Assembly (NCBI GenBank): GCA_951406725.2 | Contig: OX597829.1 | Span: 55,490,001 to 55,554,000 of the forward strand | Source: Octopus vulgaris | Lineage: Eukaryota | Direction of reading: 5' to 3' | DNA: 64,000 nucleotides | Part shown: one piece after another, positions 31,998 through 59,325 of the stretch | How the letters are laid out: every line of letters starts with the position of its first letter | Numbering within the stretch: position 1 is the stretch's first letter | Notes under the pieces: model-generated | What the model was told of the DNA's origin: nothing | What the model saw: the letters and a program-made list of their open reading frames with translations, nothing else | Databases searched by the model: none | Position numbers and translations under genes: made by a program

Positions 31998-32001
<4 letters not shown>

Positions 32002-32066
<65 letters not shown>
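32002..32066. repeat. (GA)n microsatellite
   Basis: Read directly from the sequence. Confidence 0.95.
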
Positions 32067-32068
<2 letters not shown>

Positions 32069-32369
32069 AGAGAAGCTTTATTGCTTTTCAAATATTTTTT
32101 AATCCAACTTTATTGATTCATATTGAAACTGAAATGAAATAATTATAATTAGGTTATTTAAAAAAAAATCTTTGATATTTAATAGTGCAATAATTTATAT
32201 CATATATATTAACATACATGCACACATACATACACATACATTCATATACATGTGTGTATAATTAATTTAGCAAAGACCAAAGTATTAGTAAGTAGGAAAG
32301 CAGACATATTACTAATCCCTTCAGGGAAATGGCCCTGTTAGATATGTAGAAAAGTTGTAGGTAGAAATT

Positions 32370-32620
32370 CTATACAGTATACCCGGTGCAAGCTAAGGAC
32401 ACACATAAGAGGTGCAGTGGTAGTCTTTGTGTGTAGCAGATGTGCAAGAACAACAAGCACAAAGAACCCATAGGAAGTAAGATTTCCTGCAATGTCCAGG
32501 AGGATCCTTAGAAGTGGTAGGCAGTTTCTGTTTCATAGGTGACCTAATTAGCAGTGGGGGAGGATGCTCTGAAAGTATAGTTGCCTGAAATAAGAACTGG
32601 TTGTAGAAAATTCAGTCATT
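32370..32620 (+). mobile_element. RTE-clade LINE RT fragment
   Basis: LEVVGSFCFIGDLISSGGGCSESIVA*IRTG resembles LE.V..F.YLG..I...GG......RI..(A/G)W. Confidence 0.6.
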
Positions 32621-33002
32621 AACCCTTTATTTCACAGTTATGGCAGATACCAGTGTCACACAAATGGCACCCGTGCCAGTGGCACATAAGAACACCCATT
32701 ACACTCTCATGCAATATTCTTTATTTCATGCTGCTCCTGTCCACTCAGCTGGCAAAAATGAGTAGTACCTGTGATTTCAAAAGGCTGGCCATGTTACATT
32801 CAGTGCTGAGAACTACATTGAAGGAAAGCATATCTGTGGAGTACTCAGCCACAGGCTGTTCTGTTGGTCAAACAGTTGGAACACTTGTTATCATAATTGA
32901 TGGCATGCCAGGTGGTGTGTGTGTGTGTGTGTTTATATATATATATATATGGAAAAAAAAGTCAAGATAGAAAATGCTAAAATAATTTTATAAAAAACAT
33001 TT

Positions 33003-33038
33003 CAGTACCGGTTTCAGTCATTGAGACTTTTTCAACTT
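33003..33038 (-). ncRNA. Degenerate minimal hammerhead motif
   Basis: Minus strand: aag TTGAAAA AGTC tcaat GACT GAAA CCGG TA ctg. Perfect 4-bp stem II and palindromic ACCGGT, but a mutated CUGANGA. Confidence 0.45.
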
Positions 33039-33603
33039 TAAGTATGGAAAACAATTAAATTTAGAAAAATTAAAAAAAGTTTTTTTAAAGGAATATTTGC
33101 ATAGTGTTCAAATACAAGTGGCATTTTCCTTGTTTCTGCCTGTCTCTATATATCCAAAATTATGGAATGGGGTTCTGTTAGCTAGGAAACATATGTAGCC
33201 TGGATTTTTTTTTTTTTTTACACCATTCCCTAATTCTGGAATTTCTATTCACATACACAGCAATCCCAGTTGCTAACCATGAACTAAAAAAATGACTTTT
33301 TTTCAACTTCTCAAACTTTGATATGGGAAAAATTTATAACCATCTCCATCAGTAAACTACTATTCTTCCTGAAAGCTGTTTTTTTTTTATACCTTCTATA
33401 AATTGCTTGAATCTTATTAACTTCCTACACCTTGATCCTTAGATTTTACCATTACATATTGCTATGTGTGTGTGTGTGTGTGTAATCAACAGTAACTCAG
33501 AGTTAAACAACACACACACACACATGCACATACCCCCCCCCCACACACACACACATGCACACTCAAACTCATTTACTCTATTTATGAATTTGATTGTTTA
33601 ACT

Positions 33604-33877
33604 CAGTGATTCTCAGCTGGGCTCCACATAACCCCTGGAGAGTCACATGACCCTTGAAGAGTCACATGACCCTTGGGAATCCACATAACATTTTGCAATA
33701 AAATTGGTTATATTTCTGCAATGCACAAAATGGCTGTGTGGTAAATAGCTTGCTTCCCAACCACATGGTTCTGGGTTCAGTCCCACTGCATGGCACCTTG
33801 GGCAAGTGTCTTCTACTATAGCTGACCAAAGCTTTGTGAGTGGATTTGGTTGATGGAAACTGAAAGAAGCCCATTGT

Positions 33878-33909
<32 letters not shown>

Positions 33910-34340
33910 GTGTGTGTGTGTGTGTGTATGTTTGTGTGTCTGTGTTTGTCCTCCCAACATCACTTGACAACCGTTGGTAGTGTGTTTATGTCCCCGTAAC
34001 TTAATGTTTCAGCGAAAGAGACCAATAGAATAAGTACTGGGCTTACAAAGAATAAGTCGATTTGCTCGACTAAAGGTGGTGTGCCAGCATGGCCGCAGTC
34101 GAATGACTAAAACAAGTAAAAGAGTAATTCTTAATAATCCCTTTTTTCCATAGGCCTGAAATTTTTGTGGGAGGGGACTAGTAGATTACATTGACCCCAG
34201 TGTTTCACTGGTACTTAATTTATCTTCCCCAAAAGGATGAAAGGCAAAGTTGACCTTGATGGAATTTGAACTCAGAACAGGCGAAATACCACTTAGGAAT
34301 CAAAGGGCTCTGTAGGGAACAAAATGACTGAGAAACGTTA
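33604..34340. mobile_element. hAT (Charlie-like) MITE interrupted by two SINEs
   Basis: Left end cagtgattctcagctgggctcc; right end gggctc...aaaatgactgagaaacgtta. Encloses a family A SINE (33730-34125) and a family B SINE (34145-34295). Confidence 0.5.
33730..34125 (+). mobile_element. SINE family A, near full length
   Basis: tggctgtgtggtaaatagcttgcttcccaaccacatggttctgggttcagtccc (A/B-box-like) through gaatgactaaaacaagtaaaagag. Confidence 0.85.
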
Positions 34341-34688
34341 GTTTAAAGTATGAAAGCATTTATACATGAGGATGATGCTTGTGTCTTTTTGTTATCCAAT
34401 ATTTGGAACAAGCAAAAGAATACAAGAATTGGTAATGGATTATCCTTGTTCTTTTGTTTGTTTCAGTCATTTGATGGTGACCATGCTGGAGCATCACCTT
34501 AAAGGGTGTTAGTCAAAGAAATTGACCCCTAGACTTATTATTTGTAAGCATAGTATTTATTCTATTGGTGTCTTTTGCTGAACCACTAAGTTATGATGAC
34601 ATAAACATACCAACATTGGTTGGCAAGCAATGGTAGAGAAACAAACACAGACACAAATGCATAAATATATACATACATACATATATAT

Positions 34689-34737
<49 letters not shown>

Positions 34738-34896
34738 AACCTTTTAAAACAAGCCTTCTGTAGTTTTTTCACTTTTTACTATTTTCTATATATATATATG
34801 TATATAAAGTTAGAATTAACAAAAAGCAAAAGACGAAGACAGGTGTGTAAACAACAAACAGGTGTATTAGTTTAATGCTTGGGAAGGTGAAAAAGT

Positions 34897-34932
34897 CTTT
34901 TACGTTTCGAGCCTATACTCTTCAGCAGAAAG
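34897..34932 (-). ncRNA. Minimal hammerhead variant
   Basis: Minus strand: cttt CTGCTGA AGAG tatagg CTC GAAA CG TA aaag. Confidence 0.55.
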
Positions 34933-35077
34933 GAACACGAGAAAATAAACAGAGAGAGAATAAAAAAAACGTTTTAGTGGCCAGCGGTCAATATATATTG
35001 ACAATATTGTAAATAAGGATTATCTGAAATATCAACAGCATTACCTTTAATTCTATAATTATATTCTGCCTTTTAAG

Positions 35078-35158
35078 ACCAACACATGTTTCATTTGCAC
35101 TGATTAGTAATCATTACAATTGCAACTCCACTGTAAAACGGTGCAGTCCCTTCAGGGT
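35078..35158 (-). ncRNA. Degenerate hammerhead motif with long stem II
   Basis: Minus strand: acc CTGAAGG gacTGCAC[insert]GTGCAaat GAAA CATGTG TT ggt. Confidence 0.4.
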
Positions 35159-35593
35159 TTTGGCTTGATATCCCTCGATATGGCTGTTTCACACACACAC
35201 ACACACACACACATATGACAGGCTTCTTTCAGTTTCCATCTACCAAATTCTCTCACAAGGCGTTGGTTGGCCTAAGGCTATTGTAGAAGACACTTGCCCA
35301 AGATGCCATGCAGTGGGACTGAACCGAGAACCATATGGCTGGAAAGCAAGCTTTTTGCCACATAACCATGCCTGTGCCTATAAATTAATAACCCATAGAT
35401 TTCTTGCTAATTGTCAAATCCCTGATTCCATTTACCATAACCAAAGTCTTCTATTCTTCTTAAATGCCAGCTAATTACTCTAAAGACCATTGCTAAATAG
35501 CTGTCAATCTTTTTTACGTCCCCTGTGTGTACAACAAGTATTGGAAAGTAAATAAATTCTAATCTACAGTTGTTCTTCTCATTTGCTCACTTG

Positions 35594-35645
<52 letters not shown>

Positions 35646-37883
35646 TCTCTCACTCTCTCTCTAATTATATCCATTGTGATCCTCTAAACTCGGCCACCTT
35701 GAAGTTGACTTATTGCTGTAATTCGAAGTTCACCTCTTAGGAACTGTAATATTTATACTTCCTCCTCTTCCACTGCTGCCACTGTCGCCGCCACCAGCGG
35801 TGCTAACGATTCTGCCAGTTCTGCCACTTTCAACACAAAACTATATCAAGTTTGTTCATACTCAGCTTTAGAAGCTTTGATTGAGCAGACCTATGATCAA
35901 AACCATTCCACTCACAGCAATCCTCTCTTGTGTTTTTAGACGTAACGCATCCAGAACCACATTATTCCATATCGTTATCTCTTTTTAAGACACTAAGATA
36001 TTTAGCCATTATTTCTAGCAGATTGAATTTCTACGTAAGATACGCGTTGAAGCTGTCACGGGGACATAACTCTATTAAAGAAAAACAGTTATTTCCCTTA
36101 TTGTGTTCTAATCTAGGATTAGGGAGTGACTTAGCTACGCAACATTAATCCTCCCAGTTCTGATACTCTTGTGACATTACGCGTGATTCAACACCGCCTA
36201 GCCTTTTTATAGACCATCTAAAATTAGGAACAACTCACTCTAATTGCTATTATCGACTTCTGTCAATAGATTCTCATAAAATTATTTTTTCTCACGCACA
36301 CTAATATAAATACCTACACATATATACACACAATCATACATAATGCATGCAACACACACATGTATGCATATATGTACACATACATTACATACATACAAAT
36401 GTACATGTGCACATATATACATACACGCATGCACACACACACACACACACACTTTTCTACTCTATGTACAAGGCTCGAAATTTTGGGGGAGGGGGATAGT
36501 CGATTAGATCGATCCCCAGTACGCATCTGGTATTTAATTTATCGATCCCAAAAGGATGAAAGGCAAAGTCAACCTCGGCGGAATTCAAACTCAGAACGTA
36601 AAGACAGACGAAATACTGCTAATCATTTTGCCCAGTGAGCTAATGTTTCCGCCAGCTGGCCACCTTCATACATACATATATTACATATACATACATTATA
36701 TACATGCATACAAACATGTACACATACATACATGCATGCATACATACATACATACATGCATTCAATCATGTATACATGCATGTGTGCATGCATGCGTACA
36801 TACATATATACATGCATACAAGCATGCATATACACATTCGTGCATACATACATACATCATATACATGCATACAAACATACATGTGTACATGCATACAAAC
36901 ACATGTTATACACACACGTAGATACATACACACCTATCTATGTAAACTTTACCATAAACTATTGAGTCAGTCCAGTGCATAATAGTTTAATTTAAATATT
37001 TCCAAGGACCTAAAAGGTTTCACATGAAGCGCTCTGCTTTGAGTACTTGCTTAATTATAGCAGCAACGACTGTAAGCTAATGAAAAGGATAATGTAACTC
37101 CTATTCTTGTGTCATTCATTAATTGTGTATTTATTTGTTTGTTTGTGTGTGTGTGCTTGTTTGTATTTCCCCTCCTTTTTCACATGTGTTTGCCGATTGT
37201 ATACAATGGCCTTGCTGTTCATGTGGTTGGTGCAGTTTGCTTGCCTTCCGTCACAAGATAATGTCTGGGCTTCTTACTCTCTTGACATGCTGCGCAATCT
37301 TTGCAAAGAAAAGACTCATTCATTCGGTGGCGTTTGCTTCCGGTTCTCTACACAATCATATCATCTGAGTTGTTTGTTATTGTTTGATAGACTGGGAAAT
37401 TAACACCCCACTTGGAAACGGATAGGGGTTGGTATCAGGAAGGGCAACCCGACAGAGAAAACTTTGCCTTTAATGTGCTCTCACCTGACCCATGCAAGCA
37501 TAAAAAAGTAGACCGTAGATGATGCGATGACAGTGAAAACTCTGATGACAAGGACAATGAAAATATGATGAATATTGCAGGAAATCTAAATGTATAGCAA
37601 AGGGTTGAAATTTCATTTGTTGTTATTAATGCATTTATCATTCATTTCTTTGATGGAAAACCATATTCTAAATCTCAGAATATATCTCCATTCATAACAC
37701 AAAAAAACTTATCTTACAAAATTTTATTTCTTTCAGCTGACTTTTGTTTTTTTTTTTGAATTTTTAGTTTCTCAAGTTTCTTTTGTCTTTCTTTCTTTAT
37801 TTTTTCTTCTTCAATGATGTTTAGAAATGTTTGGTAGATGATCAATTAAATCCATGCTATATGTCTGTATTCTCTTTCTTTAG

Positions 37884-37907
37884 TCGAAGGATCAGGAACC
37901 GACACTC
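37884..37907 (+). CDS. 24-nt microexon of the nidogen-like gene, encoding (I)EGSGTDT
   Basis: tattctctttctttag|TCGAAGGATCAGGAACCGACACTC|gtaagt. Consensus splice sites, phase 1/1, open in the frame left by the 22632-22723 exon. A GC-richer island in AT-rich unique sequence. Confidence 0.7.
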
Positions 37908-38187
37908 GTAAGTATCCCTAGATATCTACAACAGTGTTGTCGAATGAAAATAATCACCTGTTAACTTTGCATTTCCGTTTTTTTTGGTTTTTGTTTTTTG
38001 TTTAACATTTGCTGCATCCACATGAATATGCTTACAAAAAAAAAAAAAAGGGATTTGTATCAATGAATGTTTTTAAACATAAACCCATGCAGAAGTCCAT
38101 CTTATACTTATATTCATATTTTATAAATCATTCATAGGTAGGATCAATAAAAAAAGTACTCCATCCAGGAAGAGATAAATAACATTT

Positions 38188-38358
38188 AATATACACAACT
38201 ACAAAAGAGAGCTTCTAATAGTTTCATGCCTTAAGATACATTAAATTGACAGGTTCATATAGATTCCTCAGAGCTACATAGCATGCTTTATAAATCTGAC
38301 AATTTAATGTATCTTTAAGCATAAAAGTATTAGTAACTCTTTTGTAATTGTGTTTATT
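38188..38358. repeat. Inverted repeat containing a degenerate hammerhead (minus strand, 38210-38275)
   Basis: acacaactacaaaagag..agatacattaaattg versus caatttaatgtatct..ctcttttgtaattgtgt. The minus strand reads agct CTGAGGA at..gcat GAAA ctattag. Confidence 0.6.
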
Positions 38359-38809
38359 AGAGAGTATATATATATATAACCATGTATATATATATTGTAG
38401 ACGAAATTTAATTCAGTCAGTGAAGACATTGAGCTGAAGCAAAGAGTTTCCTTGCTTGATGATGCATCAATCTCATTCGTCAATCATTTTGAATCCGAAA
38501 TATCTTTATATGTTTGAGTTTACACAAAGAGCACAAAGAGTATAGAACACTCTGTGCTGAAACAGATATATGTATACACACACACACATATATATGTATA
38601 CATATATGTATACACACATATATGTATACACACACACACATATATATATATACATACATGCATGCATACTTGCATTATCTTCTACCATTTACATATGTAC
38701 ATGCATGCATACATGCATACAAGCACATACGTGTGTACACACTCTGGGGTGGTATCCAGTTTATATACAATATGAAGTAATAAGTACAGAATAATATAAA
38801 GTGGGTAGA

Positions 38810-39212
38810 TGTTTGACCCTTTCATTACAGTATTTCTGTTGAGATGCTCTGTGTTTCTTTCAATTAATTTTAAGTTTAACAACGAATTTAGTAAAATAAC
38901 TTAGTTATCATTAAGCTAGTGTTAGGAACATAAAATGTGACTAAGGTTTGGTGGAAGATTCTAATTCAAAACTTATGAAAATAAGACATTTGTACTCAGA
39001 GCCAGAGCCAGTTTCAGCCAGGTTGGTATCAAATGGGTTAAATATAACAAAGAGTTTAGTAAAATAACTTAGTTATCACTAAGTTGGTTTAAGGAACATA
39101 AATTGTGACTAAGGTTTGGTGGAAGATTTTAATTAAAAACTTATGAAATCAAGACATTTGTACTCAGAGAGCCAGAGCTGGTTTCAGCCGGGTTCGTAAT
39201 AAAAGGGTTAAT
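38810..39212. mobile_element. TTAA-type MITE with tandem duplication of about 170 bp
   Basis: tttagtaaaataacttagttatca...gtttcagcc.ggtt.gta...aa.gggttaa occurs twice (about 38880-39041 and about 39047-39211). Confidence 0.7.
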
Positions 39213-39917
39213 GAACAGGATTTGTTCCCCAATTATCAACTTGCCTCTGTCACATTTGTTGTGCTGTTCTATAAAGCCATGTAGAAAATAGTTGGATTAT
39301 AATTGCTATTTAAGTCTACGTTTCTGGAGAAAAGCTTCGTTGCAAGTAACTTTGCAACACTATATCTATAATGCTGAATGTGGTTATGGACAAAGAGAAA
39401 CAATAGCCAGAAGTGAAAAGGAATGCCACAAGGTACCAAGCGTAATAGAAAGGAAACCCAGTTTGAAATAAGTCCACAATGTAAGTCGTCGTTGTGTTGG
39501 CTTTTGTGGCAGGGTTTAAGTTCAATCCCCAGAAGAAGAAGCAATGGAAAAAAACAACAGGAGGACATCTAAGATTTTTTGACCTGGGTGGACCTGATTT
39601 CCTTAGAGTGTCAGAAGTACTGCTAACAAGTCGAAGCACCTGTTTGATGGGAGTTCTTCCTCTGAAGGTTTCCCCATCCTGCTTGCTCACCCTGTAGTGA
39701 AGTTTCCACTCACCCCAGTTTTCATTATTCTTCGTTATTGTTTCAGATAAGAGAAACATTGTATCCCAAATTCTTAACTAAGATTTCAACGACAACATTG
39801 ATTTCATTTCCTTTGTATGACAAAAATTTAATCTTCAGGAAAGTAATGCAAGGAACTGAATGCCTGATTTTGATTGAGTTAGACAAATTCTTCAAAAGCC
39901 ATTACTCCTGCTGATTA

Positions 39918-40151
39918 CAGTAATCCCTCGACTATCACGGGAGATACGTTTCAAAGCCCCCACCCCCCGCCCCCCACGGCGATAGGTGAAAATCCGCGTA
40001 GTAGAAACAGTACTGTATATATTTTTTTATTATTTTTATAATTTGTGAATATTTTAAAAATTATAGATGCAAAACAACACCAAAGAGGAATCGACGTAAG
40101 CGTAAATAATAGACTGCGATAGGCGAACCGCAATATGGCGGGGGAATGCTG
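39918..40151. mobile_element. pogo/Tigger-type MITE
   Basis: TA|cagtaatccctcgactatcacgg ... ccgcaatatggcgggggaatgctg|TA. Imperfect TIRs, TA TSD, CpG-rich. Confidence 0.8.
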
Positions 40152-40664
40152 TAAACAGTTCGATCCAAGGGAGGTAATTTAAGTTATATCAGGGCAGTTT
40201 TAGAATCAGAGTTATTTCAAATTTATGAAGAATTTTGGCATTTACTGAATGGGACATTTTAGAGTTGCATCGCCAACAGAGCTGAATCTTTGCCGTTGTC
40301 CACTGCAGTTGTTTCTGGAGTGGAGTTTTAGTGATGGCCACTCACCGTGTGAGTCCGTACAACATGATGCTGTTAGGAAAACAATGTACATCCATCATAG
40401 GGTGAAGTGTATGATTAAGAAGTTTGCTTCAGAAACCATGAGATCCCAGATCGAATCCCATTGCAGGACATTTTGGACAGATGTTTTGCCCAAGACTTAA
40501 GAATGGAAACTTGGAAGATGGAATCTGTTCAAAAGCCCACTGAATGGAAAGTACTTCCAATTGAAAAGTCCGTCCTTGTCACTGTTACACTTAACCTGCC
40601 AGAGAATCACACAAAGGTGTACCTGCATCTGGAATACTCAGCCAGGTCACACATTAATCTAGAT

Positions 40665-41004
40665 CAGTGGTTCTCAACTGGGTCCACATAAGATTTTGAG
40701 TGGGTTCCATGCAAGCAAAGTAGCAAATTGGGGATCTACAATAATATTTTAAGGGCCCTGAACAAATTTCACTTTAGATGTATGTATTGGTATTTTTTTT
40801 TTTTTTTGCAAGAAACAACTAAGTTTCTTCCTTTAACATTTTCCAGGGTTCCATCTACACTAGTGAATGTGTGAAAAACAAAATGGGAATTTTGAAAGAA
40901 GTTTCTATAAAACTAGTTTTTAAACATGGAATGGCTATGAGGGTCCACCAGAATAAAATAGTAATCAAAGGGGTCCAGAGATGAAAAATGGTTGGGAAGC
41001 CCTG
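40665..41004. mobile_element. hAT (Charlie-like) MITE
   Basis: cagtggttctcaac ... gttgggaagccctg. Flanks atctagat and ctttagat (NTCTAGAN-type target). Confidence 0.8.
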
Positions 41005-42899
41005 CTTTAGATGGTCATAAAGGAAAATTCACAGGAAATCCTATTATATACTTATACACATATACATTAATACATTTGTTAAAAAGGAAAAAAAAAACCT
41101 GACAAAGTTCTTTCCTAAGTCATTTACACTTATAAAGTTGGTTTCCTAGATTCTGGGGATTTAAATATTCCCCAAATGAATGGCATTCTGGTACAATACA
41201 TTGTTACTCATTTTTAACGGCTGAGTAACGTGAAATGAAGTGTCTTGTTCAAGGGCACAGTGCATTGCCTTGTCTGGGAATTGAAACCATGGTTTTACAA
41301 TCATGAGTCCAGCACCCTAACCACATATCCACATGCCTCCACTTAATACAAACATGCTCATAAACACGCATGCATGCATGCATTCATATATACGCATACA
41401 AATAGCTATATCTATTTGTCTGTCTATATATATATTTGTTCATACAAAATTCATTCATTCATGTATGTATATATATATATACAAACATAATTCTACACAC
41501 ATATACACATATACATAATAAGTGAGACATTGTTTCTTGGACCAGAATACAAATATTTCATTAAAAATTAGTGAGTAAAACAAGATTTATAGTCAACCAT
41601 TTCAAAATTTACTTAGATTTCTATTGGTTGTAATCGGTGGAGCACTTGGTTTTATTGCCAACTGCGCAAGTGTTTGATGGTTGTCTCTTGTTGTCCTAGA
41701 AAGATGGTTCTGCAATTCCTTGCTAAATGACCTGCAAAAATGATTCGTTTATAGTGATCAAATGTATTTGCTGTACATTAAGCTCATTTCCACCATCAAA
41801 TCTGACATTACCTGAACAAGTGCCCAGCGCATGGTGTACCACATGTACACATGCATCAAAGTGATAGCAGAGTGAAGTGAAATGAAGTGTTTTGTTCCAG
41901 AACACAGCACATTGCCCACTTCAGGAATTGAAACCATGATCTTATGATAGAGTGTGCAACACCTGAACCACTGTCATACACCTTCACAAACTGTATAAGT
42001 AATAATCTGGTAAAGCTAACGTTTTTAGACAATGGAGAGATCCTCTAACATGTATTCTGCAAATTTAGTCTATAAACAGTGGGAATATGCAAAATTTTTT
42101 TCTAAGATTTAGTGTAGCTGCCTACTATGGTTAGCATTTAGGTTCTTGTGGTCCAACTGCAAAGTTACATCTTTCATGGAAACAATCCTTTCTTAACTGC
42201 AAGAACTCAAAGAATTAAAAACAAACAAACAAACCATACATGCATACATATTTATGCAAACACCTTACAATCATACTCACATGTATGCATGCACACACAC
42301 ACACACATTGCATGAAATAAGTTATTTCTCCATGCATTGAAAAAAGATGATATATAATTTAACTCTATAACCAGTTATATTGAGTGTTTGCAACTTTGAT
42401 ATTTGTAACTTGTTTGTGTGTGTGTATTTGTATGTGTATATTTTTCCAACTGTGTACATATATATGTGTATATGAATGTACACATATAGATGAATGTATG
42501 TGTGCATGCATGTATGTATGTGTTTTTACGGCTATATGCACCTTTGTTCTAACAACACCGGAAGCAAATGAAGATTTGATATTTCATCTACTTACATCTT
42601 CAATTAAGAAACGTTTGCATGGCTGAAAGCATGTCTACGACAGATGCATGGCAGCAAATGGAAAGTTATACTTTCAATGGAGAAAAGCTATGGCGCTGTT
42701 GCTTAGGTTTGTTATCTGTTTGCATGGCGATCTTCTCTGATGATGATGAATGAAGAATACTCAATATAAAACAGATATGGAGAGGATGGATGGGAAGTTT
42801 GGATGTAGAAACGTTAGGGAGGCATGGATTGTTGGTGTTGCAGTTGTTTAATTTCAACAAGCTGTATTTTGAATATCGAATGCAATGTTTAGATTCTGA

Positions 42900-43980
42900 A
42901 CCCCCAATGGGCCATGCCTCTGTCTGCTATGCAAACCATGATGAAGTCTCTGGTATACATTCGTTGGTTACATCTTGTGTTCATAGTCTTGTCCTGCTCT
43001 ATTTTTTAAATGCAATCTGGTTATCTGTGCTTGATGGACATAGTTTAGTGTTGAGATATGATGATGATAATAATAATAATAATAGTGAATAATGATAGTG
43101 AAATTATTGTGTATAGTGCTCAGGCGCATTACAGCTCATTAAAGGTGTATGTACAGAACATAGAATTATGTAGAAAAGTCAGGAAAGTGAACAGTGTATG
43201 AGTCATGATAGACATGTGTGCATGTGTATGGAAGGGGAAGGGGATGTCAGGTGTAGTGTTGGTGAATTTCAGGGAACATGGAGGTTTTAAAGGTTTTAAT
43301 AATCTTGAAGTCTTGGTTCTTGACTGCTGTGGAAATGTGTGTGTTTGTATGAAGAAGATAATTGCAAAAGAGATCAGCATATATTTATTAGCCTAATGAG
43401 AAACTGTAGTTTATAGATGGACTGAGGATTAAAGGGACTACTTATAATTAGTATGATTAATTTTTAGTTTGAATTTTTAATGTCTGTTAGAAAAAAAAAT
43501 TGTGAGGATAGATTTAGTTCGAGGAGATATAGTTCTAATTAGGGATGGTCAGATTAGGAAGAAAATCCATGACAAAGTAATGCTGTAAAAAATTCATGGT
43601 TTTGTGTAGCAAGAAAGGATCTAATTAATAATCCAGTTAGAGTTTTAAGTACTCAGTAAGGATATCAATTATCAATATGTAATTAAATGGAAGTAGAATT
43701 AACTGTAAGGTAGGTGGGTAGGGCGTAGGGTTAGGTGTGATCAGAATTAGAAGTTGAACTGCAAATATTTTGATTCAGAAATAATTTTAAAAGAGAAACT
43801 TTTAAAGAAATGGGCCTGAAATTTTAAATTATTTAATTTGTTATTAAAGGAAAGAAATTCTAGCAAATCTGTTCTTTTGTAGAGGAAGTTTATTGCCATA
43901 AGAGCAGAGTCAAAGACATAATATATGGAAACGGTAGCAGTTAGTTTTGGTGAAGGAAAGACTAAAATCCTAAACACAGC
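42900..43980 (-). mobile_element. Very old Penelope-like RT remnant (tentative)
   Basis: Minus LTATVSIYYVFDSALMAINFL...LLEFLSFNN is weakly reminiscent of the PLE RT L.T.DV.SLYT.IP....L.AI..FL...LLEF.L.NN region. Confidence 0.3.
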
Positions 43981-45000
43981 AAGGCATCGTAATTGTCAGT
44001 TAAACCTTTTGATGCTATATTTTTGTTTTTAAATACACTCTTTGTATTTTGATTAATTAATTAAAATCACAATGGTACAGGAAAATAACTTTGTCATTAT
44101 CCAGTTAGTATCTAAGGTGGCATGTTGGCAGAACCGTTAGCAAACTGGAGAAAATGCTTGGTGGCATTTTGTTCATCTCTCTATGGTTAAAGTTCCTATT
44201 CTGCCAAGTTTGACTTTGCCCTTCATCCCATTGAGATTGATAAAACAAGCACTTGTCAAGTACTGGTGTTGATGAAATCAACTAGCCCTCTTTCACAAAA
44301 TTTCACACCATGTGTCTATGGTAGAAAGAATTACTGTGCTAGCATAGTTTACATGAAATTTTAATGGGAAATTTTAAGCTAGGGGACTTTAAAATGGAAA
44401 GTCTGTACCACAGAACCAATGGTAGTTTCAGGCAGGTTGGAATCAAATGAACTAAAGAGCAGATTTTATGAAAGATATCCAATGCTTCAATGTTGATTCT
44501 TTATTAACATATTTAAATAAATATCTACAGTTTCACATGAATGAATTTACGTGCATGGCTACACGCAGCTTATTCCTGTCACTGGCAAACATAACTTTCT
44601 TCTCTGAGCTGCTCAATTCACAATCACTATATTCATTTCGTTCACCTTTTCTCTTGGACACAGCTCCATCTGGAACCAATTTAATGGCACTCATTACATG
44701 AAATAACCACATTTCTTGCGAAAATATCACAGACATTATTCTCCGTAATATTAACTTGGATTTTGAGTTTCTTGGATGGTTTTTATGATTCAAACTTTTG
44801 CTTACTGCAATGCAATGCATGGCAAGAATTAAGTCTATTTTCGATTATGAAATTATATTGATGTAGATACATATTGCTTTATGTCTCAATGATCTCAATG
44901 TTATTTACAATAATCAATATATTTTCATTTGTACTCAAATACTATTTGCTGTTATTTTCTAAAATTATTTTCTTTTTCCCTATAAAACTCAGAATTGAAA

Positions 45001-45068
45001 TACACACACACACAGACATGCATATGCACACACGTGGACAAACACATACACATGGACACACACAAGTG

Positions 45069-45101
<33 letters not shown>

Positions 45102-45192
45102 GTGCACACAACACATACACACACACACACGTACACACACACATACACACACACACACGTACACACACATACACACACATGTGCACACGACA

Positions 45193-45251
<59 letters not shown>

Positions 45252-45262
45252 CCACACACACA
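45001..45262. repeat. Compound (CA)n microsatellite
   Basis: Read directly from the sequence; the source of the HT/CV ORFs. Confidence 0.9.
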
Positions 45263-45696
45263 AGTATATTTATTTACAATCCCTGGGTTGTGAGTTTCTC
45301 CCCACACACTGTGAATGAAACATTCAGCTCTTGAGTAACTTTGCAGCTTCTGCTAATTAACACTGTAAAAAAAAAAAAAAAGGTGTATACTCATGCTTTG
45401 AGATCTACATTTCCTGTTTGTCTCACCAAACCTATGGCGGCTGTCTGCTCCTTGCAGAGCTTAACCTCTTGGTGTGCCTATAATTGTTCTTCCTCAGCTT
45501 GAGATCATAAACGACTTTTGAGCCCTGAAAGTCATTTAAAGAGCTGATAACAAAACCTGCAGCAATGTCTCATTTCAGTATTGACTCCTTTTCCTGCCTG
45601 TTTTATTATGAATATTCAAAGGCCATTTCAATCATCCACATGACTTGCAGGTTTTATATATCTGTATTAATGTGTACACACACACATATGTATGTA

Positions 45697-45732
<36 letters not shown>

Positions 45733-45875
45733 CATATATATATATGATACATGTTTTGTAATTCAAATTAAAGTCAAACAATTGTAGGCAATGCTAAATA
45801 ATTAATAAATTAATTTATATGCATTGAATCTCTCTGTTTTCAAACTTATTACATATCTGTATATGTATATATATA

Positions 45876-46032
45876 CTTTATTTAAAGCAGCAGAAAATTC
45901 AACAAAACAAAACAAAATCTGTTACTCTGAGTTTCCCGTTGCCGTTCATCTAGCAAAAACTGTCCGATGAACGGCAACAGGAAACTCTGAGTAACAGGTT
46001 TTTTGAATTTTCTGCTGCTTAAAATAAAGCAT
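45876..46032. repeat. Inverted repeat (PLE-like) carrying a minimal hammerhead at 45960-45997 (+)
   Basis: aagcagcagaaaattcaa..ctgttactctgagtttcccgttgccgttcatc versus its reverse complement. Motif: ctgt CCGATGA acggcaacag GAAA ctctgag TA acag. Confidence 0.7.
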
Positions 46033-46552
46033 ATTACTCTACCACTGGTATTTGAGTACTCTTTTTTCCACCTTGTTTCACATTTATGTGTTTACTCCGG
46101 TATATATATATATATATATATATAGATACGCACACACACATATATGTATACTTATATACGTATATATACACACACACATATATATATACATCAATACATA
46201 CACAAATATATGTGTGTGTATATATATGTGTATATACACTGAGACTTAGTCCCTGCTTGCTTTGTGAGATGCATACAAAAGTAAGCTTTTTGCCATTCTG
46301 TTTGACCTATTGCAGTTTTCTCTGACCCAGTGGAACAAGCCTTCATGCAATTGTCGTTTTTTCCTGGAATGGTCAGCACTGGTTGATCTCTTTCTGGCTT
46401 CCTTCATTTGGTCTTCACATCAATGCAGTCTTTGCATACAAGGTGACCAGTAGGTGCAAAATGTGACCGTCAACAGTTGGGACTCGGGATTTATTGTGTG
46501 GAAGGATTAACTTATATCTAATATATATATATAAGTATATGTATCTATCATC

Positions 46553-46584
<32 letters not shown>

Positions 46585-46705
46585 CTGTAGAAACACTGCC
46601 AGATCTGACTGGCCTGGTGCAGCCTTCGGGCTCCCCAGACCCCAGTTGAACCGTCCAACCCATGCTAGCATGGAAAGCGGACGTTAAACGATGATGATGA
46701 TGATG

Positions 46706-46747
<42 letters not shown>

Positions 46748-46850
46748 GTCTTTCAAAGACTGACCAGCAGCAAAGATATCAACAAATTTTTTCTTCTTTC
46801 TCTATTTCTTCTTCCTTTCAGATACAAACACACACACACACACACACACA

Positions 46851-46884
<34 letters not shown>

Positions 46885-47162
46885 TTCACTTCCTCTCCAT
46901 TCCTCACCCTCTTGTACTATCATATATCTCTCTTCACCCCTACACACTCAATAAAACTGTAAAAAGTCAAAATTCCTGCAAAAGTTCAATTTGAAGACTC
47001 CACCAGAAAGGACGAAAGCGCTAATATATGATATATGATATAAGTTATATGATTTATAAAAACATGTAACATACTAATAAATATCGTTAAATATAAAACC
47101 ATCCAGATTTCTGAGTACCTCATTTCTTCTGATATATAATACCTGTACATCATCTCCAAACC

Positions 47163-47200
<38 letters not shown>

Positions 47201-48347
47201 TAAGAAAGTTGATATATATATATGTACATACATACACACACACAAAGACTCACACATGTTTACACATACTCACACACACATGTAGAAGAAACAAAATATA
47301 CAATGTATGTGGCATGTTGTAATTCCATAAGTTTTCACTTAAAATTGCATAAATATGATAACAGAATTACTTGATACTTAGTAAAATATATAATCTCTCT
47401 AAGAATCCTATTTTTTATATCAGAAATGTGTTCTGAGTATTTTTTGTATGAACCAAAATGCTTCTTATATTAACTTGATTATTATTGTAATATTTAATCT
47501 TAAGTTTGATACTTGTAAAAAATAGTTATAATTGCAATGAATTTTTTTTGTTTTGTTCTGGATGAATTTGGAACAAATTGAAATAACTTATTTCTCAGCA
47601 TGGTATGTTTTCAGGAATATATACTTGCAAGAATGTATGATATTTTTTAAGTATTTATCATCATTTAATTTCCAGCATTTTAAAATGTTTTGCTTATAAT
47701 TTAAGTAATGTATTTAAATGTTATGTTGTCAAAGTTTGTACTTATAATTTTACATTTACATTGCCAATTCTGAATTGACAAATTTAACTCTATTTCTAAA
47801 TTTCCAAATCAGATTTGTTTTATGATTTAAGTTCTTAGTAGCTTCTATATTTTCCAAATATTTCCAACAATTCATAGTTCACATCATGAATGTATCTTTC
47901 ATTGTTTTTTTTTTCCCTCTCTCAATTTTTCTTCTGCTGAAAGGAGACCCCTTGCAAACCTTCATGATTCTCTTCCTGCCTTGAATAGTAAATCACTTTT
48001 CAGATATCATTCACTAATAAATGTTATTGTGCAGTAAATAATTCAAAATTTGGTCTACAACATCCTTAAACAAGTCTTTCTACTAAATTGGAGAAAACCT
48101 CAACATCAATGAATCATTTCTAATGTAAACCTTCCAGCAAATGGATAAACTAAAATCTAATTATTTCTTTAATCTTCAGATGAAAACTGAAAGAATTCCT
48201 GGTAGAAAATATTAATTAGCATAAGTAGTAATTAGAATTACTTTACCTTGATTAACATCCTTAAGAAGGTGCCCAGAGAAATATTTAACACCAAATTTTC
48301 TCTTCTGTTAACTTTTCTTTTATCTCTGTTTTGTCTGTACATTCTAG

Positions 48348-48371
48348 CAATTTACTCTGGAGAAATACCAG
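48348..48371 (+). CDS. 24-nt microexon of the nidogen-like gene, encoding (P)IYSGEIP
   Basis: Long pyrimidine tract ...ttttgtctgtacattctag|CAATTTACTCTGGAGAAATACCAG|gtaagt. Perfect CAG|gtaagt donor, phase 1/1, open frame. Confidence 0.7.
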
Positions 48372-48623
48372 GTAAGTGGTTCAGTCAAGAATATACATTG
48401 GGCATTCCTCCATCAATTCACATCTTTCTATGAGTCTCTTCTTTACTTTTTAATCCTTCTCAAGATAAACAACCAATTTTCTTCAGCATATACAATTTTA
48501 CATTTAATTTGTATGTATACATATGTATGTGCGTGCATGTGTGTGTCTGTAAGATTGTAACTCTTTGTATGTGCATCTATACATGTCTTCATATATATAC
48601 ATATATAAATAAACACATATCTA

Positions 48624-48665
<42 letters not shown>

Positions 48666-49110
48666 CGCATGTATAGATGCATTGTGTACTTATGTGTTTG
48701 CATTTTTGCATATGTGTTGTTTATAAATTTATGAATCTATCTGTATATTTTTACAGCATTTTAAAGGTGGCCTTTCACAGCCTTTATTTTAGAATTAAGA
48801 TTATATTTTTCTTCAGCTTTATGTTATAGTATAAGGGAAGCCATTCTGAAACAGCTTATATGAATTACCTCACTTGAATTGATACATCTTATCTAATCAA
48901 TAGTAATAATGTCATTCCAAGAATTCTCTCAATTCTATACAAATTATACATCGAAATTAAATCCCTAATTTCATGAACAATTAGATGATGATGATGATGA
49001 TGATGATGATGAATTAAATCATGTATAAATAAAGGAAAAACAAAGCCATTTCTCCTCTTGTGAAGATTTTAGTATGTTTTGAAATAGAATTAAACAGCAA
49101 CAGCATTTAT

Positions 49111-49184
<74 letters not shown>

Positions 49185-49756
49185 TGTTTTAGTATAGTCC
49201 ATAACCATGAAAGATATGAAATTATGGGCAAAATGGCCCACTTTACTAAATAAAACTTCAGTCACTATAGAAATATTATAATAATTATAATCATTGGAAT
49301 TATGGAAATATAATAATTATAATCAGTAAAGTCTACTAATTAGACAATTAGTCACTATTATAGGAACAAGGGAGAAGACCTCGCTTCGATGAATTTCTTC
49401 AACCCCCCCCTCTTTCTTTTGTTGTCCTTGTTGTGAACATCCACCCAAAGCCCCAAACTAACTTCTACATTCAGGGTTTTCATGCATCTGAAATTCCTGA
49501 CCTGCCCTGGGTCTTCCTGCTGCTGTAAATTTTCAACTTTTCAATTAAGGAGGAGCAATAAAGTTGTATGAATCTCGCCAACTTTGGGGGGGGTTGGAGC
49601 ATAGCCTGTCGTCCAGATCAATCCATTATTGTTAAAAACACACTCACATATGGCGGTGCCCCAGCAAAATGGCAGTGCCCCAGCAAATGGCGGTGCCCCA
49701 GCATGGCCACAGCTCAAGAGCTGAAACTGGAAAACATAAACATAAATATGCTTCCA

Positions 49757-49823
<67 letters not shown>

Positions 49824-50199
49824 GCAGCCCAATATAAAAGTGCCAGTGCAGTGTCACATAAAAAGCATCCAGCACTCTCTCTGAAGTGGTTGGCATTAGG
49901 AAGGGCAGCTTCCAGCTGTAGAAACTATGTCAAATCAGACTGGAACTTGGTGCAGCTCCCCAGCTTTTCAGCTCTGGTCACACTGTCCAACCCATGCCAG
50001 CATGGACAATGGACATTAAATGATGATGATGATGATGATGATATGTCTAAGAATCTATGTTGGAAGAAAACAGGCACCTGTATATTTGTCAACAGAGTGG
50101 GCACATTGATATTTATACAATTACAGTGTCACAGATCCATTGTAGCTAAGATTACCAATCAGTTTTGCACATGAGAGTTTGGTGGGGGTGGGGGATAAC

Positions 50200-51450
50200 C
50201 TAATCTCAGCACATGTCAGAGGGGGCTAGTAGGAAAGGTTATTGTTATGACTTTTTGCTGTCATCAGGTTGGGTGGGGGTGGGTCATATAGTGTGTGGGT
50301 GTTGTGTGACAAACTGAAATGTAAAAAGAAAAAAGAAAAACCTGTGGGAAAAGTTCAGAGGGTAAGTTACCTTGAGTTATGTCCCTTGGACAAGAATCAG
50401 ATTGTCTTCATGGTGTAAAAGAGATAACTGCCAGCTGAATGGGATTGGAACTGTGGGTACAGAGGAGGGAGATTGGAGTGTAGTCAGTCTTGAAATCAAA
50501 ATCTTAAATTGTATATGCATGTGTGTGTTTGTATGTTATAAGCTGGGCATGGTAGATCTTGTGCTGCACTCTTGGACTGGTGATGAGAAGTACTGAGGGT
50601 GGAAGCTCTAACGTTCGGCAGACAGACTTGCAGAAATATGTGACAGAAGGTTCTTTCCGAACCAGATTTAACAAACAGTACTCCTGTAATATCCAGGAGA
50701 GGTGAAATGTTGCAGCCTTAGCTAGATATATATGGTCATTGAGAGAAAAGACTATGAATAGCAGTATCAAGTGGAAAGTAGTTGAGAGGTGTAAGCCTTA
50801 CCTCAATAGCAGTAGGAAGTGGTGCTGGCTGTGCTTGGTAGAGGAAAGAATTATACTAAAGAACTCTCTTCACTTGGTTACTGATCTAAACTGTAAAAGG
50901 AAATTTCTTCTGAAGTCACCCATATGAAAGGAAAGTTGTTTGGATACTGGCAGACTGCACCATGAATATAAATGGTGGAGTTACCACCATCAGGACTTAC
51001 TGCTGTCACAATCTGAGGAATCAGCAGAAGGTCTACCACATCCAGCTTGTTACATACACTACACACACACACATACATATACATGACCACACATGCTATT
51101 AAATTTGACACCCACATCATCCCCACTTTCTTCTCCTTTCCCTGCAATCACATCATCTCCATTCTCCCCGGACACTAACCCCAGCTTCTCTCTTCAGTCA
51201 CCCTTTATTTTGTGAAGATGCTCAGATCCTTGTTCAAGCAGCATAATGCTAATTGAATTCCCTTTTGAACTCCCTACAAACTGGATGTCAGAGTTCCTTA
51301 CTTCCAATGGAAGAGAGTTGTCACCACACTCTTCCTATCAGCCCCTCTGATGAGTATCGCGATTGAGTTTTCCTCCAAACTCTTGTGTTGCAAAACAGTT
51401 TGGTGAAATTGGCTGAAATGAATCTATAATACTGTATTTTATAAATATAT
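50200..51450 (+). mobile_element. Penelope-like element 3' remnant with inverted segment and terminal hammerhead-like motif
   Basis: LARYIWSLREK....IKWKVVERCKPY.....CWLCLVEERII matches the PLE GIY-YIG C-terminal LS.YIW.LK...I.W.I...PY....C.LC..EK..I. About 50490-50600 is inverted at about 50985-51110. CTGATGA at 51347 is followed by a long hairpin and AAAA. Confidence 0.65.
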
Positions 51451-54400
51451 ATTTATATATTCAAACATAAAGAGAATCCCTTTATTGCCAGTAGAAGTAA
51501 TAGCTCAGTCTATTAGGTTGCCTAGGTAACAGAAGCAATCAATTTATTTCTATAGAAATGGACTTCATATGTCTACCTGCCTATATACATCTTGTACACC
51601 CATAGTTCATATAAGTGTGTCTCTGGGTGTGAAAATAAAAATTTACTTTGAAACTCATTCAGTAACTCCTCTCTCCTATCTCACGTATCTTCCTCATCTT
51701 TCTCACCCTCCTACTTATGATTACCATCAATATTTACCTACTTACTTGGTAAATGCTAACAATAATGGTAATGAGGTCTACTATTTGGCCCAAAGCCATT
51801 TCTCTTGATTTTGTATCCTCACACATATAAGATCTAACATCATTAAGTCTATCCACATCACTTCTACTATCTACATTTCATCTTTTATGCAAGTTAAGGC
51901 TGCACATCCAAGCAGATCATTTTCAAATCATTTATTTTCATACTCTACAGAAAGCAGGTCTCAGGAGTTTCAAAGCCTAAATCTCACTCTCATGTGACAT
52001 AACCCTTCTTATGTTTTTGACATAATATGTATATAAGATTTTAAAAAATCCTTTGTTAACAACAAGAACAACAACTCTTTGAAGCTCTCTCCCCCACATT
52101 TCTCACTTTAGCTCTATGCATTTACTCTGTTTACCTTCAGTACTAATTATGTTATCTTCATGAAACTGTCTACCCTTCAAGAGAATCATTTGAGGATTTC
52201 CTAGACTTCATTTTATGGATGTTCCTCTTGCCATCTACCCATTTACATTCGGTTTATCTGAGTGACTGGTTCTCTTTTAATCTGCTATATCAAGCAAGGA
52301 TCCCTCCAAGATGGCACTGGTATCTTGATTATCCTGTTTCTTATCAGAATTATAGTCTTTCTTGTATTGACCATTAATTCCTGGGAGTACAGATTATTCT
52401 ATTAGTTAGACATTTTCTAAAGATTTTTCAATAGATTCTGCAATGAGAATCAAGTCATGATCACATGACATTTCCAAAATGTATGCAATTCTGGTGTCCT
52501 TAAAGATTATGAAGATTTCGAAGATTGTGACAGCATAGGTGAAGAATACCCTCATATCTAATGAATTTAAATTGTACACTGAATGAAGGAGTCCTGAACT
52601 CCCTCAAGTCACTTGTGAACCGATTATCTTATTGTAATTTTCTCATCACCCACCTGAGTACAGATCAGGGATCTCTGTTCACTTGTCTTGAAAAAGAACT
52701 CTTGCAGCTATATTTCTAAATATATGACACCTGTGTTGCCATATTCTGTTCCAATCCTAAACAGTGTGTTGCCCAAGCTGATTATATCTGGTGATGACTT
52801 TACATACCATATTCTCAGTTTCCATCCTAATTTAATTACTCAATCCATAAATATAAGACTTCTATAATTACTTCTCTCTGGAACATCATATTCACTTTTG
52901 TGGCTTTTGATGTTGGCATTACCAAACCAGTCATTAGGAATTAGAAGTAATTCCTATGGTATTGATTTAATCTGATGATTTTAGTGCCTCAGTATTGATC
53001 TCTTCAATATGAAAGATCAATAAATAGAACAATAAAATATTTATTGACAAAATTTCACAATATAGTAGGTGGTGGCTAATACTCTTGAAATAAATATTGT
53101 ATTGGTACCATGAGTGCTGTTTGTACCAGTCGTCTGTTTGGACACACGTGAATTTAACATAATGATTGAAATAGCAGAACTAACCTAGAAATATCAAGTT
53201 CTGAAGTTATTGAAGATAAAGGTAAATGGTTCAGTGAGATAAAATGTAAAAAAAATTTTAAAAAAATGAAAAAAAAAATGAACTTTCTTCAAGCAGTCCA
53301 AATTCATGAAAAAGTCTAAAAAGAATCTGATATTTTCCTTTATAACTGAAGATACTTCAACTGATTACTTAAACTTAGCTTTCATACATGTATTGGCTGC
53401 TGTTGCTGTTGTTAAAAAGCCTCTTTTGAGTTCTGATGAAATAATCTTTCTTCAGAAAAGCATTTTTACAAAATTATCTTATATTGACCTCACATATATG
53501 AAAGTTAAATATGAATACAAAGTATTATTAAGCCCTATACTCTTTGGACACCATTTAATCAGATTAATTAAGAAATATTTCTTGGTTAACCAATAAAATG
53601 TTCGAGGGTAACATTTAGCTGTTATCTTTAAAAAACTGTGTTATTGACATAGAAATCTTTTTATATGTTGGAAGCAAATTTACTCTCATGGCAAGAATAA
53701 AAGAAATTTGAAAGTAAAATAATAAACAACATTTTCTTCACCGGATTTCGCCCATAATTAGTGAAAGTAATTAATTTAAAAACAACAAACTTGTTTTCTG
53801 AATGAAATTTCAAATCTTTATATTTCTCCAAACTGAATTGATATTTAATCTAGTTTTAATGTAGACTTTACCTGTATATATATATATTGATTTTTAAATT
53901 ATATTTTGGTTAAAATAAGCTATCTGATATCCAAAATTTAAACCAGAATCTTAATTTCATTGAATGTCTGTGTAAATATGTGTATAGATATTGGTGTGTG
54001 AAAATCTGAACTCACTGAGATTTCAAGTGAAATGACAAGTTTTCTTCCTGCATGTTGTTGACTTTTCTTAAAACAGTTAATAATAATTTTTTTCTTTGAA
54101 TTCTATGAAATGTTTCCTTCATAACCGAAATGAAAACAAAATGTTAACACTTTAAGCAATTCTCTGATTTTTAACGAATTTTTCAAGTAAATGTTCTTTT
54201 TTTTATCTTTATCATTATCTCATAATATATTGCCATAATATATTTCAGGAATGTCTTGCCCAGGCATATATATTAATGTATAAATAACTTAGTTATTAAG
54301 AAATACTGTGAATTAATTGATGCTTTGCATTTTCATTATGTTGATGAATTCATCCAAACATGATATTGTTTGGTTTAAGAGTTCTTTCCGTTTCAACAAG

Positions 54401-55596: not shown

Positions 55597-55643
<47 letters not shown>

Positions 55644-55704
55644 ATATAAATATATATGTATAATAAATAGACTGACAGAAGCAGTATTAATACCAAAATA
55701 TAAA

Positions 55705-56345: not shown

Positions 56346-56546
56346 GTTTATACACACACATATATATATACACACATACACATATACACATTATATATAT
56401 ATAAACATATATATATATATATATATATGATGTGGCACTGAAAATGTAATAAAGGCATTTCAAAATAAACTATTCTCTTCTATACAGAAGCATGATATTC
56501 TATTGCACGTCTAAATAAAACTTTAAGTGTGTGTGTGTGTGTGTGT

Positions 56547-56577
<31 letters not shown>

Positions 56578-56690
56578 GAGTTTCTCAGATTGGAACCTGG
56601 TGCAGCCTCCTGGCTTGCTACTCAGTCAAACCGTCCAACCCACGCCAGCATGGAAAGTGGATGTTAAGCGATGATGATGATATACACACA

Positions 56691-56742
<52 letters not shown>

Positions 56743-59281: not shown

Positions 59282-59325
<44 letters not shown>

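What the first reader, a model, noticed from the sequence alone, without database searches (positions are those of the whole stretch)
37884..48371. Two 24-nt frame-preserving microexons building a Ser-Gly-rich nidogen linker
Seen: two isolated 24-nt segments about 10.4 kb apart. Each has a pyrimidine tract plus TAG acceptor and a GTAAGT donor, and both are phase 1/1 and open in the frame left by the exon ending at 22723. They give ...PPEKEE-IEGSGTDT-PIYSGEIP. Known: acid-flanked Ser-Gly (EGSG) is the xylosylation site for glycosaminoglycan chains, and symmetric exons of 27 nt or less can be skipped without frameshift. Inference: a modular splice switch that could turn this nidogen into a part-time proteoglycan or tune the G1-G2 linker by tissue. 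Gene predictors often miss such exons.
Basis: partly seen in the sequence, partly recalled or inferred. Interest (0 to 1): 0.75.

Follow-up and report, generated by a model that had tools for sequence, protein, structure and literature searches.

The report
Octopus nidogen sugar-chain microexon pair
Two 24-base mini-exons in the octopus gene for the basement-membrane protein nidogen are real and spliced; the first, usually kept, adds a likely attachment site for a long sugar chain, and the optional second would likely tune how many or what kind of chains are added rather than switch them on and off.

Summary
Both 24-nt exons are real. Coordinates, splice sites and phase are as described. Spliced contigs join them to the next exon in 3 of 4 runs laid. 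Public proteins hold both, exon A only, or neither.

The two exons differ in role. A (acid-flanked G-S-G) is in 8 of 9 octopod proteins and every upstream-joined contig seen. The motif is kept in Argonauta and an unnamed sister clade, but in only 2 of 42 other short-linker nidogens. B is the variable one: about 29% by contig depth in one run, the only form in another, not seen in a third.

Both serines lie in the model's longest disordered stretch. Inferred mechanism: A makes cephalopod nidogen a glycosaminoglycan carrier. B adds a weaker second Ser-Gly and pushes the downstream Asp-Glu-Asp cluster eight residues from A's serine; in human enzymes such clusters decide heparan versus chondroitin sulfate.

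No chain has been shown, and tissues are unknown. The exons are already in RefSeq isoforms, and splice-controlled chain sites are known (APP, APLP2). A neat, testable variant.

The parts
13867..14069 (+). Nidogen exon T, C-terminal part of NIDO (G1) domain; weak donor GTATTT
   Evidence: tblastn 91-97% to full-length Octopus nidogens; boundaries
22632..22723 (+). Nidogen exon U (end of G1, start of linker, ends ...PPEKEE); supplies the acidic residues upstream of A's serine; phase-1 donor
   Evidence: its last 6 nt seen joined to A in contigs of X10 and X1
22724..37883 (+). Intron U-A, 15,160 nt
37884..37907 (+). Microexon A, 24 nt, phase 1/1, encodes (I)EGSGTDT; carries the conserved acid-flanked G-S-G sequon; mostly included
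37908..48347 (+). Intron A-B, 10,440 nt
48308..48312 (+). Candidate branch point TTAAC 40 nt upstream of B, inside a 67-nt AG-free zone (motif match only)
48348..48371 (+). Microexon B, 24 nt, phase 1/1, encodes (P)IYSGEIP; alternatively included cassette with a second Ser-Gly at the same codon offset as in A
48372..64000 (+). Intron B-D (15,804 nt, runs past the window end); exon D (DEDVAFC..., EGF before G2) begins at window-equivalent 64176

Best explanation
The two segments are genuine microexons of the octopus nidogen G1-G2 linker: A is usually included and likely provides a glycosaminoglycan attachment serine, while B is an optional cassette that likely tunes chain number or type rather than switching chains on and off.

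Shown: splicing of U-A-D and A-B-D; frame; conservation of G-S-G with acids on both sides across octopods and their sister clade.

Predicted: both serines lie in a disordered linker.

Inferred: (1) Xylosyltransferase modifies A's serine (E at -2, -4, -5; G at -1 and +1; T at +2). (2) Both exons are 24 nt with Ser-Gly at the same offset, so the last included exon's serine always sits 6-8 residues before the Asp-Glu-Asp of exon D. With A alone that slot holds A's serine, an EXTL3/heparan-favouring context by analogy to betaglycan. With A+B the cluster moves to +14..+16 from A's serine, and B's weaker serine (Y at -1, one acid at -5) takes the slot. That would add a second chain and/or shift A's chain toward default chondroitin. 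Skipping both, seen only as a RefSeq model, would give a chain-free linker.

Rough odds: exons real 0.99; B alternative 0.95; A carries a chain 0.65; B alters chain number or type 0.35.
For: Splicing: X10 holds U-A-D (depth 160.8) and A-B-D (65.8), about 29% B; X11 shows only A-B-D (675.7); X1 shows U-A-D in one 4058-nt contig.

Proteins: A in 8 of 9 octopod proteins spanning the linker, B in 3 of 9, none B-only.

Motif distribution: an acid-flanked G-S-G linker site in 15 of 16 cephalopod-clade rows, versus 2 of 42 other short-linker nidogens. The 16 rows are not independent (about four lineages), and the one miss is the skip isoform. The unnamed clade P0011/19/25 is sister to octopods with support 1.0 and keeps G-S-G while flanks vary. 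A's site ranks top by acid count among the 14 Ser-Gly of P0008.

Structure: residues 171-194 of P0006, holding both serines, are the longest pLDDT<50 stretch.

Enzymes: one Xylo_C locus and three GT64 loci in the genome; octopus and squid make chondroitin sulfates (PMC6696379 passages).

Enzyme rules: XT1 needs small +1, favours Val/Thr at +2, tolerates Tyr at -1 and Pro at -3 (PMC5992326 passages). Acids C-terminal of Ser-Gly, e.g. +7, confer EXTL3 specificity; chondroitin is the default (PMC10570366 passages). Human nidogen-2 is listed with chondroitin sulfate at Ser452 and Ser358 (PMC8418075 table).
Against: No glycan was observed; all enzyme rules come from human proteins. XT1 is promiscuous in vitro, so a motif match predicts little.

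My acid rule scores 0 of 30 long-linker nidogens although 13 have a Ser-Gly, so it is not a validated predictor.

Low pLDDT is partly forced by thin alignment there (3-13 of 45 rows at residues 176-188).

Contig depth is a poor measure and contigs drop rare forms. The runs are only guessed to be RNA, tissues are not given, and X1 is a different organism label from X10/X11, so the B differences may be species or assembly effects. RefSeq X3 shows A can be modelled as skipped.

B was seen only in genus Octopus: not in 2 Argonauta proteins or 8 sister-clade rows. Exon boundaries outside this genome were inferred from peptide length, not DNA.
Confidence: 0.55

Rival explanations
1. On/off switch: regulated skipping of A (and B) makes nidogen a part-time proteoglycan by tissue.
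For: O. bimaculoides RefSeq isoform X3 (P0005) lacks both exons and has no linker Ser-Gly. The U-D join is in frame. APP and APLP2 do this.
Against: A is in 8 of 9 octopod proteins, in 8 of 8 sister-clade rows spanning the linker, and in all 4 upstream-joined contigs of 3 runs. Read support for X3 could not be seen.
Confidence: 0.15
2. No glycosaminoglycan: the exons only set length, flexibility or protease sensitivity of the G1-G2 tether, or add other modifications (O-GalNAc on Thr/Ser, tyrosine sulfation on B's Tyr; vertebrate precedent recalled, not from a call).
For: Gly/Ser/acid-rich composition is typical of flexible linkers. Gastropod linkers of similar length (26-27 aa) have no Ser-Gly. 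B's Tyr, Ile and Glu are conserved as well as its Ser-Gly (6 of 7 internal residues shared with O. bimaculoides).
Against: G-S-G stays invariant while its neighbours change across four lineages, with acids kept on both sides. That is more specific than a spacer needs.
Confidence: 0.2
3. B is a near-neutral, leaky exon tolerated in a low-constraint linker.
For: B seen only in Octopus; no distinctive regulatory motif found; linker poorly conserved across 45 nidogens.
Against: B is the only form in X11 at depth 675.7 and about 29% in X10. Its peptide is better conserved between O. vulgaris and O. bimaculoides (6 of 7) than A's (4 of 7).
Confidence: 0.1

Closest known systems
APP exon 15 / appican and APLP2-751 vs -763 (splice-controlled chondroitin sulfate sites; PMC4314671 and PMC3117885, passages)
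   Same: A short in-frame alternative segment in an extracellular linker changes whether or how a serine carries a glycosaminoglycan.
   Different: There, exon skipping creates the site and inclusion removes it. Here the site is encoded inside a microexon (A), and a second microexon (B) adds another Ser-Gly and moves the downstream acidic cluster. The chain is shown biochemically there, only inferred here.
Human nidogen-2 as a chondroitin sulfate proteoglycan (Ser452, Ser358; PMC8418075 table row); nidogen-1 called a bona fide proteoglycan in PMC13038410 (passage)
   Same: Same protein family. The sites fall in the G1-G2 linker by recalled domain boundaries (not tested here); that linker is described as disordered (PMC13398667 passage).
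   Different: Long-linker nidogens have 70-290 aa linkers, the octopus linker is 23-39 aa. Most other short-linker nidogens lack the motif (36 of 42 have no Ser-Gly at all), so the cephalopod site probably arose independently. No splice control of the nidogen-2 sites turned up in my searches.
Srrm3/4 (eMIC)-dependent neural microexons (bioRxiv 10.1101/2021.02.24.432780, passages)
   Same: Size of 27 nt or less, frame-preserving, long flanking introns, AG-free zone (44 and 67 nt); B has a branch-point match.
   Different: No UGC near B's acceptor (nearest -78); A has one at -29. Donors are consensus GTAAGT. AG-free zones of the ordinary exons U and D are as long (78, 62). Neural specificity is untested.
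RefSeq O. bimaculoides nidogen-1-like isoforms X1/X2/X3 (XP_052829735/737/738) and O. sinensis XP_029648740
   Same: Same exons, already modelled as alternative isoforms.
   Different: Automatic annotation only; no function, glycosylation site or tissue pattern attached.

Membership tests
Nidogen | NIDO (G1) - linker - EGF/G2F - EGF rod - LDL-B propeller (G3) architecture | tested here: met
   Pfam on P0006/P0008; exons in order on C16; hits to solved nidogen-1 G2 and G3
Alternative microexon (cassette, 3-27 nt) | Spliced into mRNA at both predicted junctions | tested here: met
   U-A, A-D, A-B and B-D joins read in loose ends of contigs
Alternative microexon (cassette, 3-27 nt) | Both inclusion and skipping occur | tested here: met
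   B: both forms in one run, X10. A: skipping only as RefSeq model X3, so inconclusive for A
Srrm3/4 (eMIC) neural microexon programme | UGC close to the 3' splice site with long pyrimidine tract | tested here: not met
   B nearest UGC at -78; A one at -29; pyrimidine share 0.77-0.80 versus 0.70-0.77 in exons T, U, D
Srrm3/4 (eMIC) neural microexon programme | Neural-specific inclusion dependent on the eMIC factor | not testable with these tools
   Run tissues not given; supplements of the bioRxiv 20-species splicing study are closed
Glycosaminoglycan attachment site | Ser-Gly with nearby acidic residues | tested here: met
   A: 3 acids in -5..-1 and 4 (A-only) or 2 (A+B) in +2..+10. B: 1 and 4
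Glycosaminoglycan attachment site | At least four residues each side in an unstructured, accessible stretch of a secreted protein | tested here: met
   Predicted only: pLDDT<50 at 171-194 of P0006; thin alignment there
Glycosaminoglycan attachment site | Xylose-linked chain actually present on the serine | not testable with these tools
   Needs glycoproteomics or lyase digestion
Splice-controlled part-time proteoglycan (APP/APLP2 type) | Isoforms differ in chain presence, number or type | not testable with these tools
   Sequon context differs by isoform, but no biochemistry
Tandemly duplicated exon pair | Sequence similarity between A and B and their flanks | tested here: not met
   6 of 24 nt identical; 26 of 131 control sites align to A's neighbourhood as well as B's does

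The most novel reading that the evidence does not exclude
Microexon B is a splice-operated heparan/chondroitin selector. By inserting exactly eight residues it swaps which serine sits at the EXTL3-reading distance from a fixed acidic cluster, so one cephalopod basement-membrane protein carries different chain types or numbers in different tissues. It acts on a glycosaminoglycan site that cephalopods gained through a dedicated microexon.
Probability: 0.2. Interest if true: 0.68.

Novelty: new variant of a known kind. Interest (0 to 1): 0.4.

Why it matters
If true, octopus nidogen offers a natural, minimal isoform series (no site, one site, two sites with a shifted acidic cluster) to test in an animal how core-protein spacing decides heparan versus chondroitin sulfate. 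That rule has so far been shown with human peptides and cells. It would also point to a cephalopod-specific change in a core basement-membrane protein. If no chain is there, it is an ordinary pair of already annotated linker microexons.

Tried and rejected
Splice-motif statistics as proof: rejected, not above chance. Further microexons between U and D: a relaxed scan gave 16 candidates including A and B; none of the other 14 peptides appears in the named proteins, so none was kept.

A and B as a tandem duplication: no support. The shared TGTCTGTA upstream of both occurs 6 times in the window and was not pursued. Srrm4-type and Rbfox-type motifs: no convincing signal; the TGCATG 163 nt after B lies in a microsatellite and occurs 37 times in the window.

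Run search: no RNA holder listed; X7 laid nothing. No skip-both (U-D) or B-only contig was seen in the 3 covered runs, but contigs cannot show absence. Junctions were read only from the exon D side.

Search for shorter sister-clade proteins lacking the motif gave 1 hit that does not span the linker. Two rows (P0146, P0160) were dropped from the linker count because their domain hits overlapped.

Papers not held: Toledo 2020, source of the nidogen-2 sites, and the 2019 eMIC origin paper. PMC3618921 passages gave nothing on the linker. Earlier scan notes: nothing on this locus and unrelated microexon arrays. Pfam scan of 10 intronic ORFs: one weak hit below cut-off. L003 was fetched but not analysed.
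Full report
OBSERVATION. A (37884-37907) and B (48348-48371) are 24 nt each, follow a pyrimidine tract and TAG, and precede GTAAGT. Exon U (22632-22723) ends one base into a codon. The next constitutive exon D lies just beyond the window (L002:1176-1310) and begins in phase 1. All four combinations are open: KEE-I-DEDVAFC (neither), KEE-I-EGSGTDT-L-DEDVAFC (A), KEE-T-IYSGEIP-V-DED (B), KEE-I-EGSGTDT-P-IYSGEIP-V-DED (both). The motifs alone are not proof: about 2.8 such acceptor-donor pairs are expected by chance, with 3 found on the plus strand and 4 on the minus.

THE GENE. The window holds four coding exons of a nidogen spread over about 190 kb of contig C16. The joined peptide matches O. 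vulgaris proteins at 150 of 151 aligned residues and O. sinensis at 156 of 159, so the genome is most likely O. vulgaris. Pfam gives NIDO, G2F, EGF repeats and LDL-B repeats. The microexons fall between NIDO and the EGF that precedes G2F.

THE EXONS ARE USED. Named proteins: O. bimaculoides RefSeq X1 (1274 aa) has both, X2 (1266) A only, X3 (1258) neither; O. sinensis has both; two O. vulgaris proteins have A only; two Argonauta proteins have an A-like segment (V-DGSGFGP-I); an unnamed MetaClust protein has both. So A is in 8 of 9 and B in 3 of 9, never alone.

Contigs of four public runs were laid on exon D. X10 holds U-A-D (depth 160.8) and A-B-D (65.8; its length fits U-A-B-D), roughly 29% B. 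X11 shows only A-B-D (675.7). X1, another organism label, shows U-A-D in a 4058-nt contig. X7 laid nothing. The runs are only guessed to be RNA, though exon-joined contigs argue for it. Tissues are not given, depth is crude, and rare forms are dropped. Within those limits B is an alternative cassette (both forms in one run) and A looks mostly included.

CONSERVATION. A search of 50%-identity representatives (best 150 listed) plus earlier hits gave 90 proteins with both NIDO and G2; two were dropped. I counted linker Ser-Gly with at least two acids in the five residues before and two in the nine after. It occurs in 15 of 16 cephalopod-clade rows, 2 of 42 other short-linker nidogens and 0 of 30 long-linker ones. 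The 16 rows represent about four lineages, and the miss is the skip isoform. An unnamed clade (P0011, P0019, P0025) is sister to octopods with support 1.0 on a 28-sequence FastTree, probably squid or cuttlefish (inference). It keeps F-DTGSGSI-F-EED: seven residues between junction positions, as a 24-nt exon would give, though its DNA was not seen. Two named gastropods lack any linker Ser-Gly. The site therefore likely arose once in the cephalopod line and was kept while neighbours drifted. The zero in long linkers shows my rule is not a validated predictor.

MECHANISM. An AlphaFold2 model of the two-exon protein (mean pLDDT 79.5) has its longest low-confidence stretch at 171-194, covering both serines; the alignment is thin there. 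Human XT1 needs a small residue at +1, favours Val or Thr at +2, tolerates Tyr at -1 and Pro at -3, likes upstream acids, needs an extended stretch, and is otherwise promiscuous (PMC5992326, passages). A's site (E-E-I-E-G-S-G-T) fits well and has the highest acid count of the protein's Ser-Gly sites. B's (D-T-P-I-Y-S-G-E) is permitted but weaker.

Acids C-terminal to the sequon, for example at +7 in betaglycan, let EXTL3 start heparan sulfate, while chondroitin is the default; tandem sequons raise EXTL3 efficiency (PMC10570366, passages). In PMC11031135 (passages) a longer two-site peptide was instead converted less well. Site acidity also correlates with chondroitin sulfation (PMC10424144, passages). 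Because A and B have equal length and Ser-Gly offset, exon D's Asp-Glu-Asp sits at +6..+8 from whichever serine is last. Including B hands that slot to B's serine and moves it to +14..+16 from A's. I infer that B tunes chain number or type. The genome encodes a Xylo_C protein and three GT64 loci (not assigned to EXTL3 individually), and cephalopods make chondroitin sulfates (PMC6696379, passages). None of this shows a chain on nidogen.

REGULATION AND ORIGIN. The eMIC signature includes UGC close to the acceptor (bioRxiv 10.1101/2021.02.24.432780, passages). B has none within 78 nt and A has one at -29, so a neural Srrm4-type programme is not supported by motif. A and B show no DNA likeness beyond controls, so duplication is unproven.

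COMPARISON. Splice control of a chain site is known. Skipping APP exon 15 creates appican's site (PMC4314671, passages); APLP2-751 carries a chain and APLP2-763 does not (PMC3117885, passages). Human nidogen-2 is listed with chondroitin sulfate at Ser452 and Ser358 (PMC8418075, table row). That these lie in the G1-G2 linker is recalled, and the source paper was not held.

LITERATURE SEARCH. Searches for microexon + octopus (3 of 4 listed), nidogen + microexon (3 of 4 listed), nidogen + cephalopod terms (20 of 1,973 listed), nidogen linker + splicing (15 of 28 listed) and microexon + attachment terms (11 of 11) showed no title or abstract on these exons. A 20-species splicing preprint including O. 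bimaculoides has no 'nidogen' in its main text; its supplements were closed and could list them.

VERDICT. Observation confirmed; interpretation partly supported. The exons are real and already annotated as isoforms. What looks new is the cephalopod-conserved sequon on a microexon and the geometry by which a second microexon could retune it. New variant of a known kind; interest 0.40. The bold reading (a splice-operated heparan/chondroitin selector) has probability about 0.2 and interest about 0.68 if true.

Noticed in passing
window 14070-14153: Exon T has a weak donor (GTATTT). An older O. bimaculoides model (P0001, 266 aa, 'alpha-tectorin-like') reads through it and stops in the intron, giving a NIDO-only protein: an annotation artefact or a truncated isoform.
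   Followed up: no
window 22442-22537: MetaClust protein P0009 begins with sequence matching the intron upstream of exon U, probably a mis-modelled first exon.
   Followed up: no
window 985-1659 (+) and 7006-7470 (-): Open frames that resemble fragments of non-LTR retrotransposon proteins (resemblance recalled); Pfam found no family.
   Followed up: partly
window 16762-16948 and 38877-39211: A perfect 14-bp tandem repeat of 13.4 copies, and a 169-bp tandem duplication about 1 kb downstream of microexon A.
   Followed up: no
L002:1176-1200 (exon D): O. vulgaris and O. sinensis lack two residues (GP) that O. bimaculoides and Argonauta have after the acidic cluster.
   Followed up: no
proteins P0088 and P0064: Two distant unnamed nidogens have their own acid-flanked G-S-G in the short linker, suggesting repeated independent gain of such a site.
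   Followed up: partly
L002:1090-1203 and L002:1277: Low-depth contigs (10-12) cover the intron before exon D in X10 and X11 (pre-mRNA or DNA); X1 differs from the genome by one G>A in exon D.
   Followed up: no
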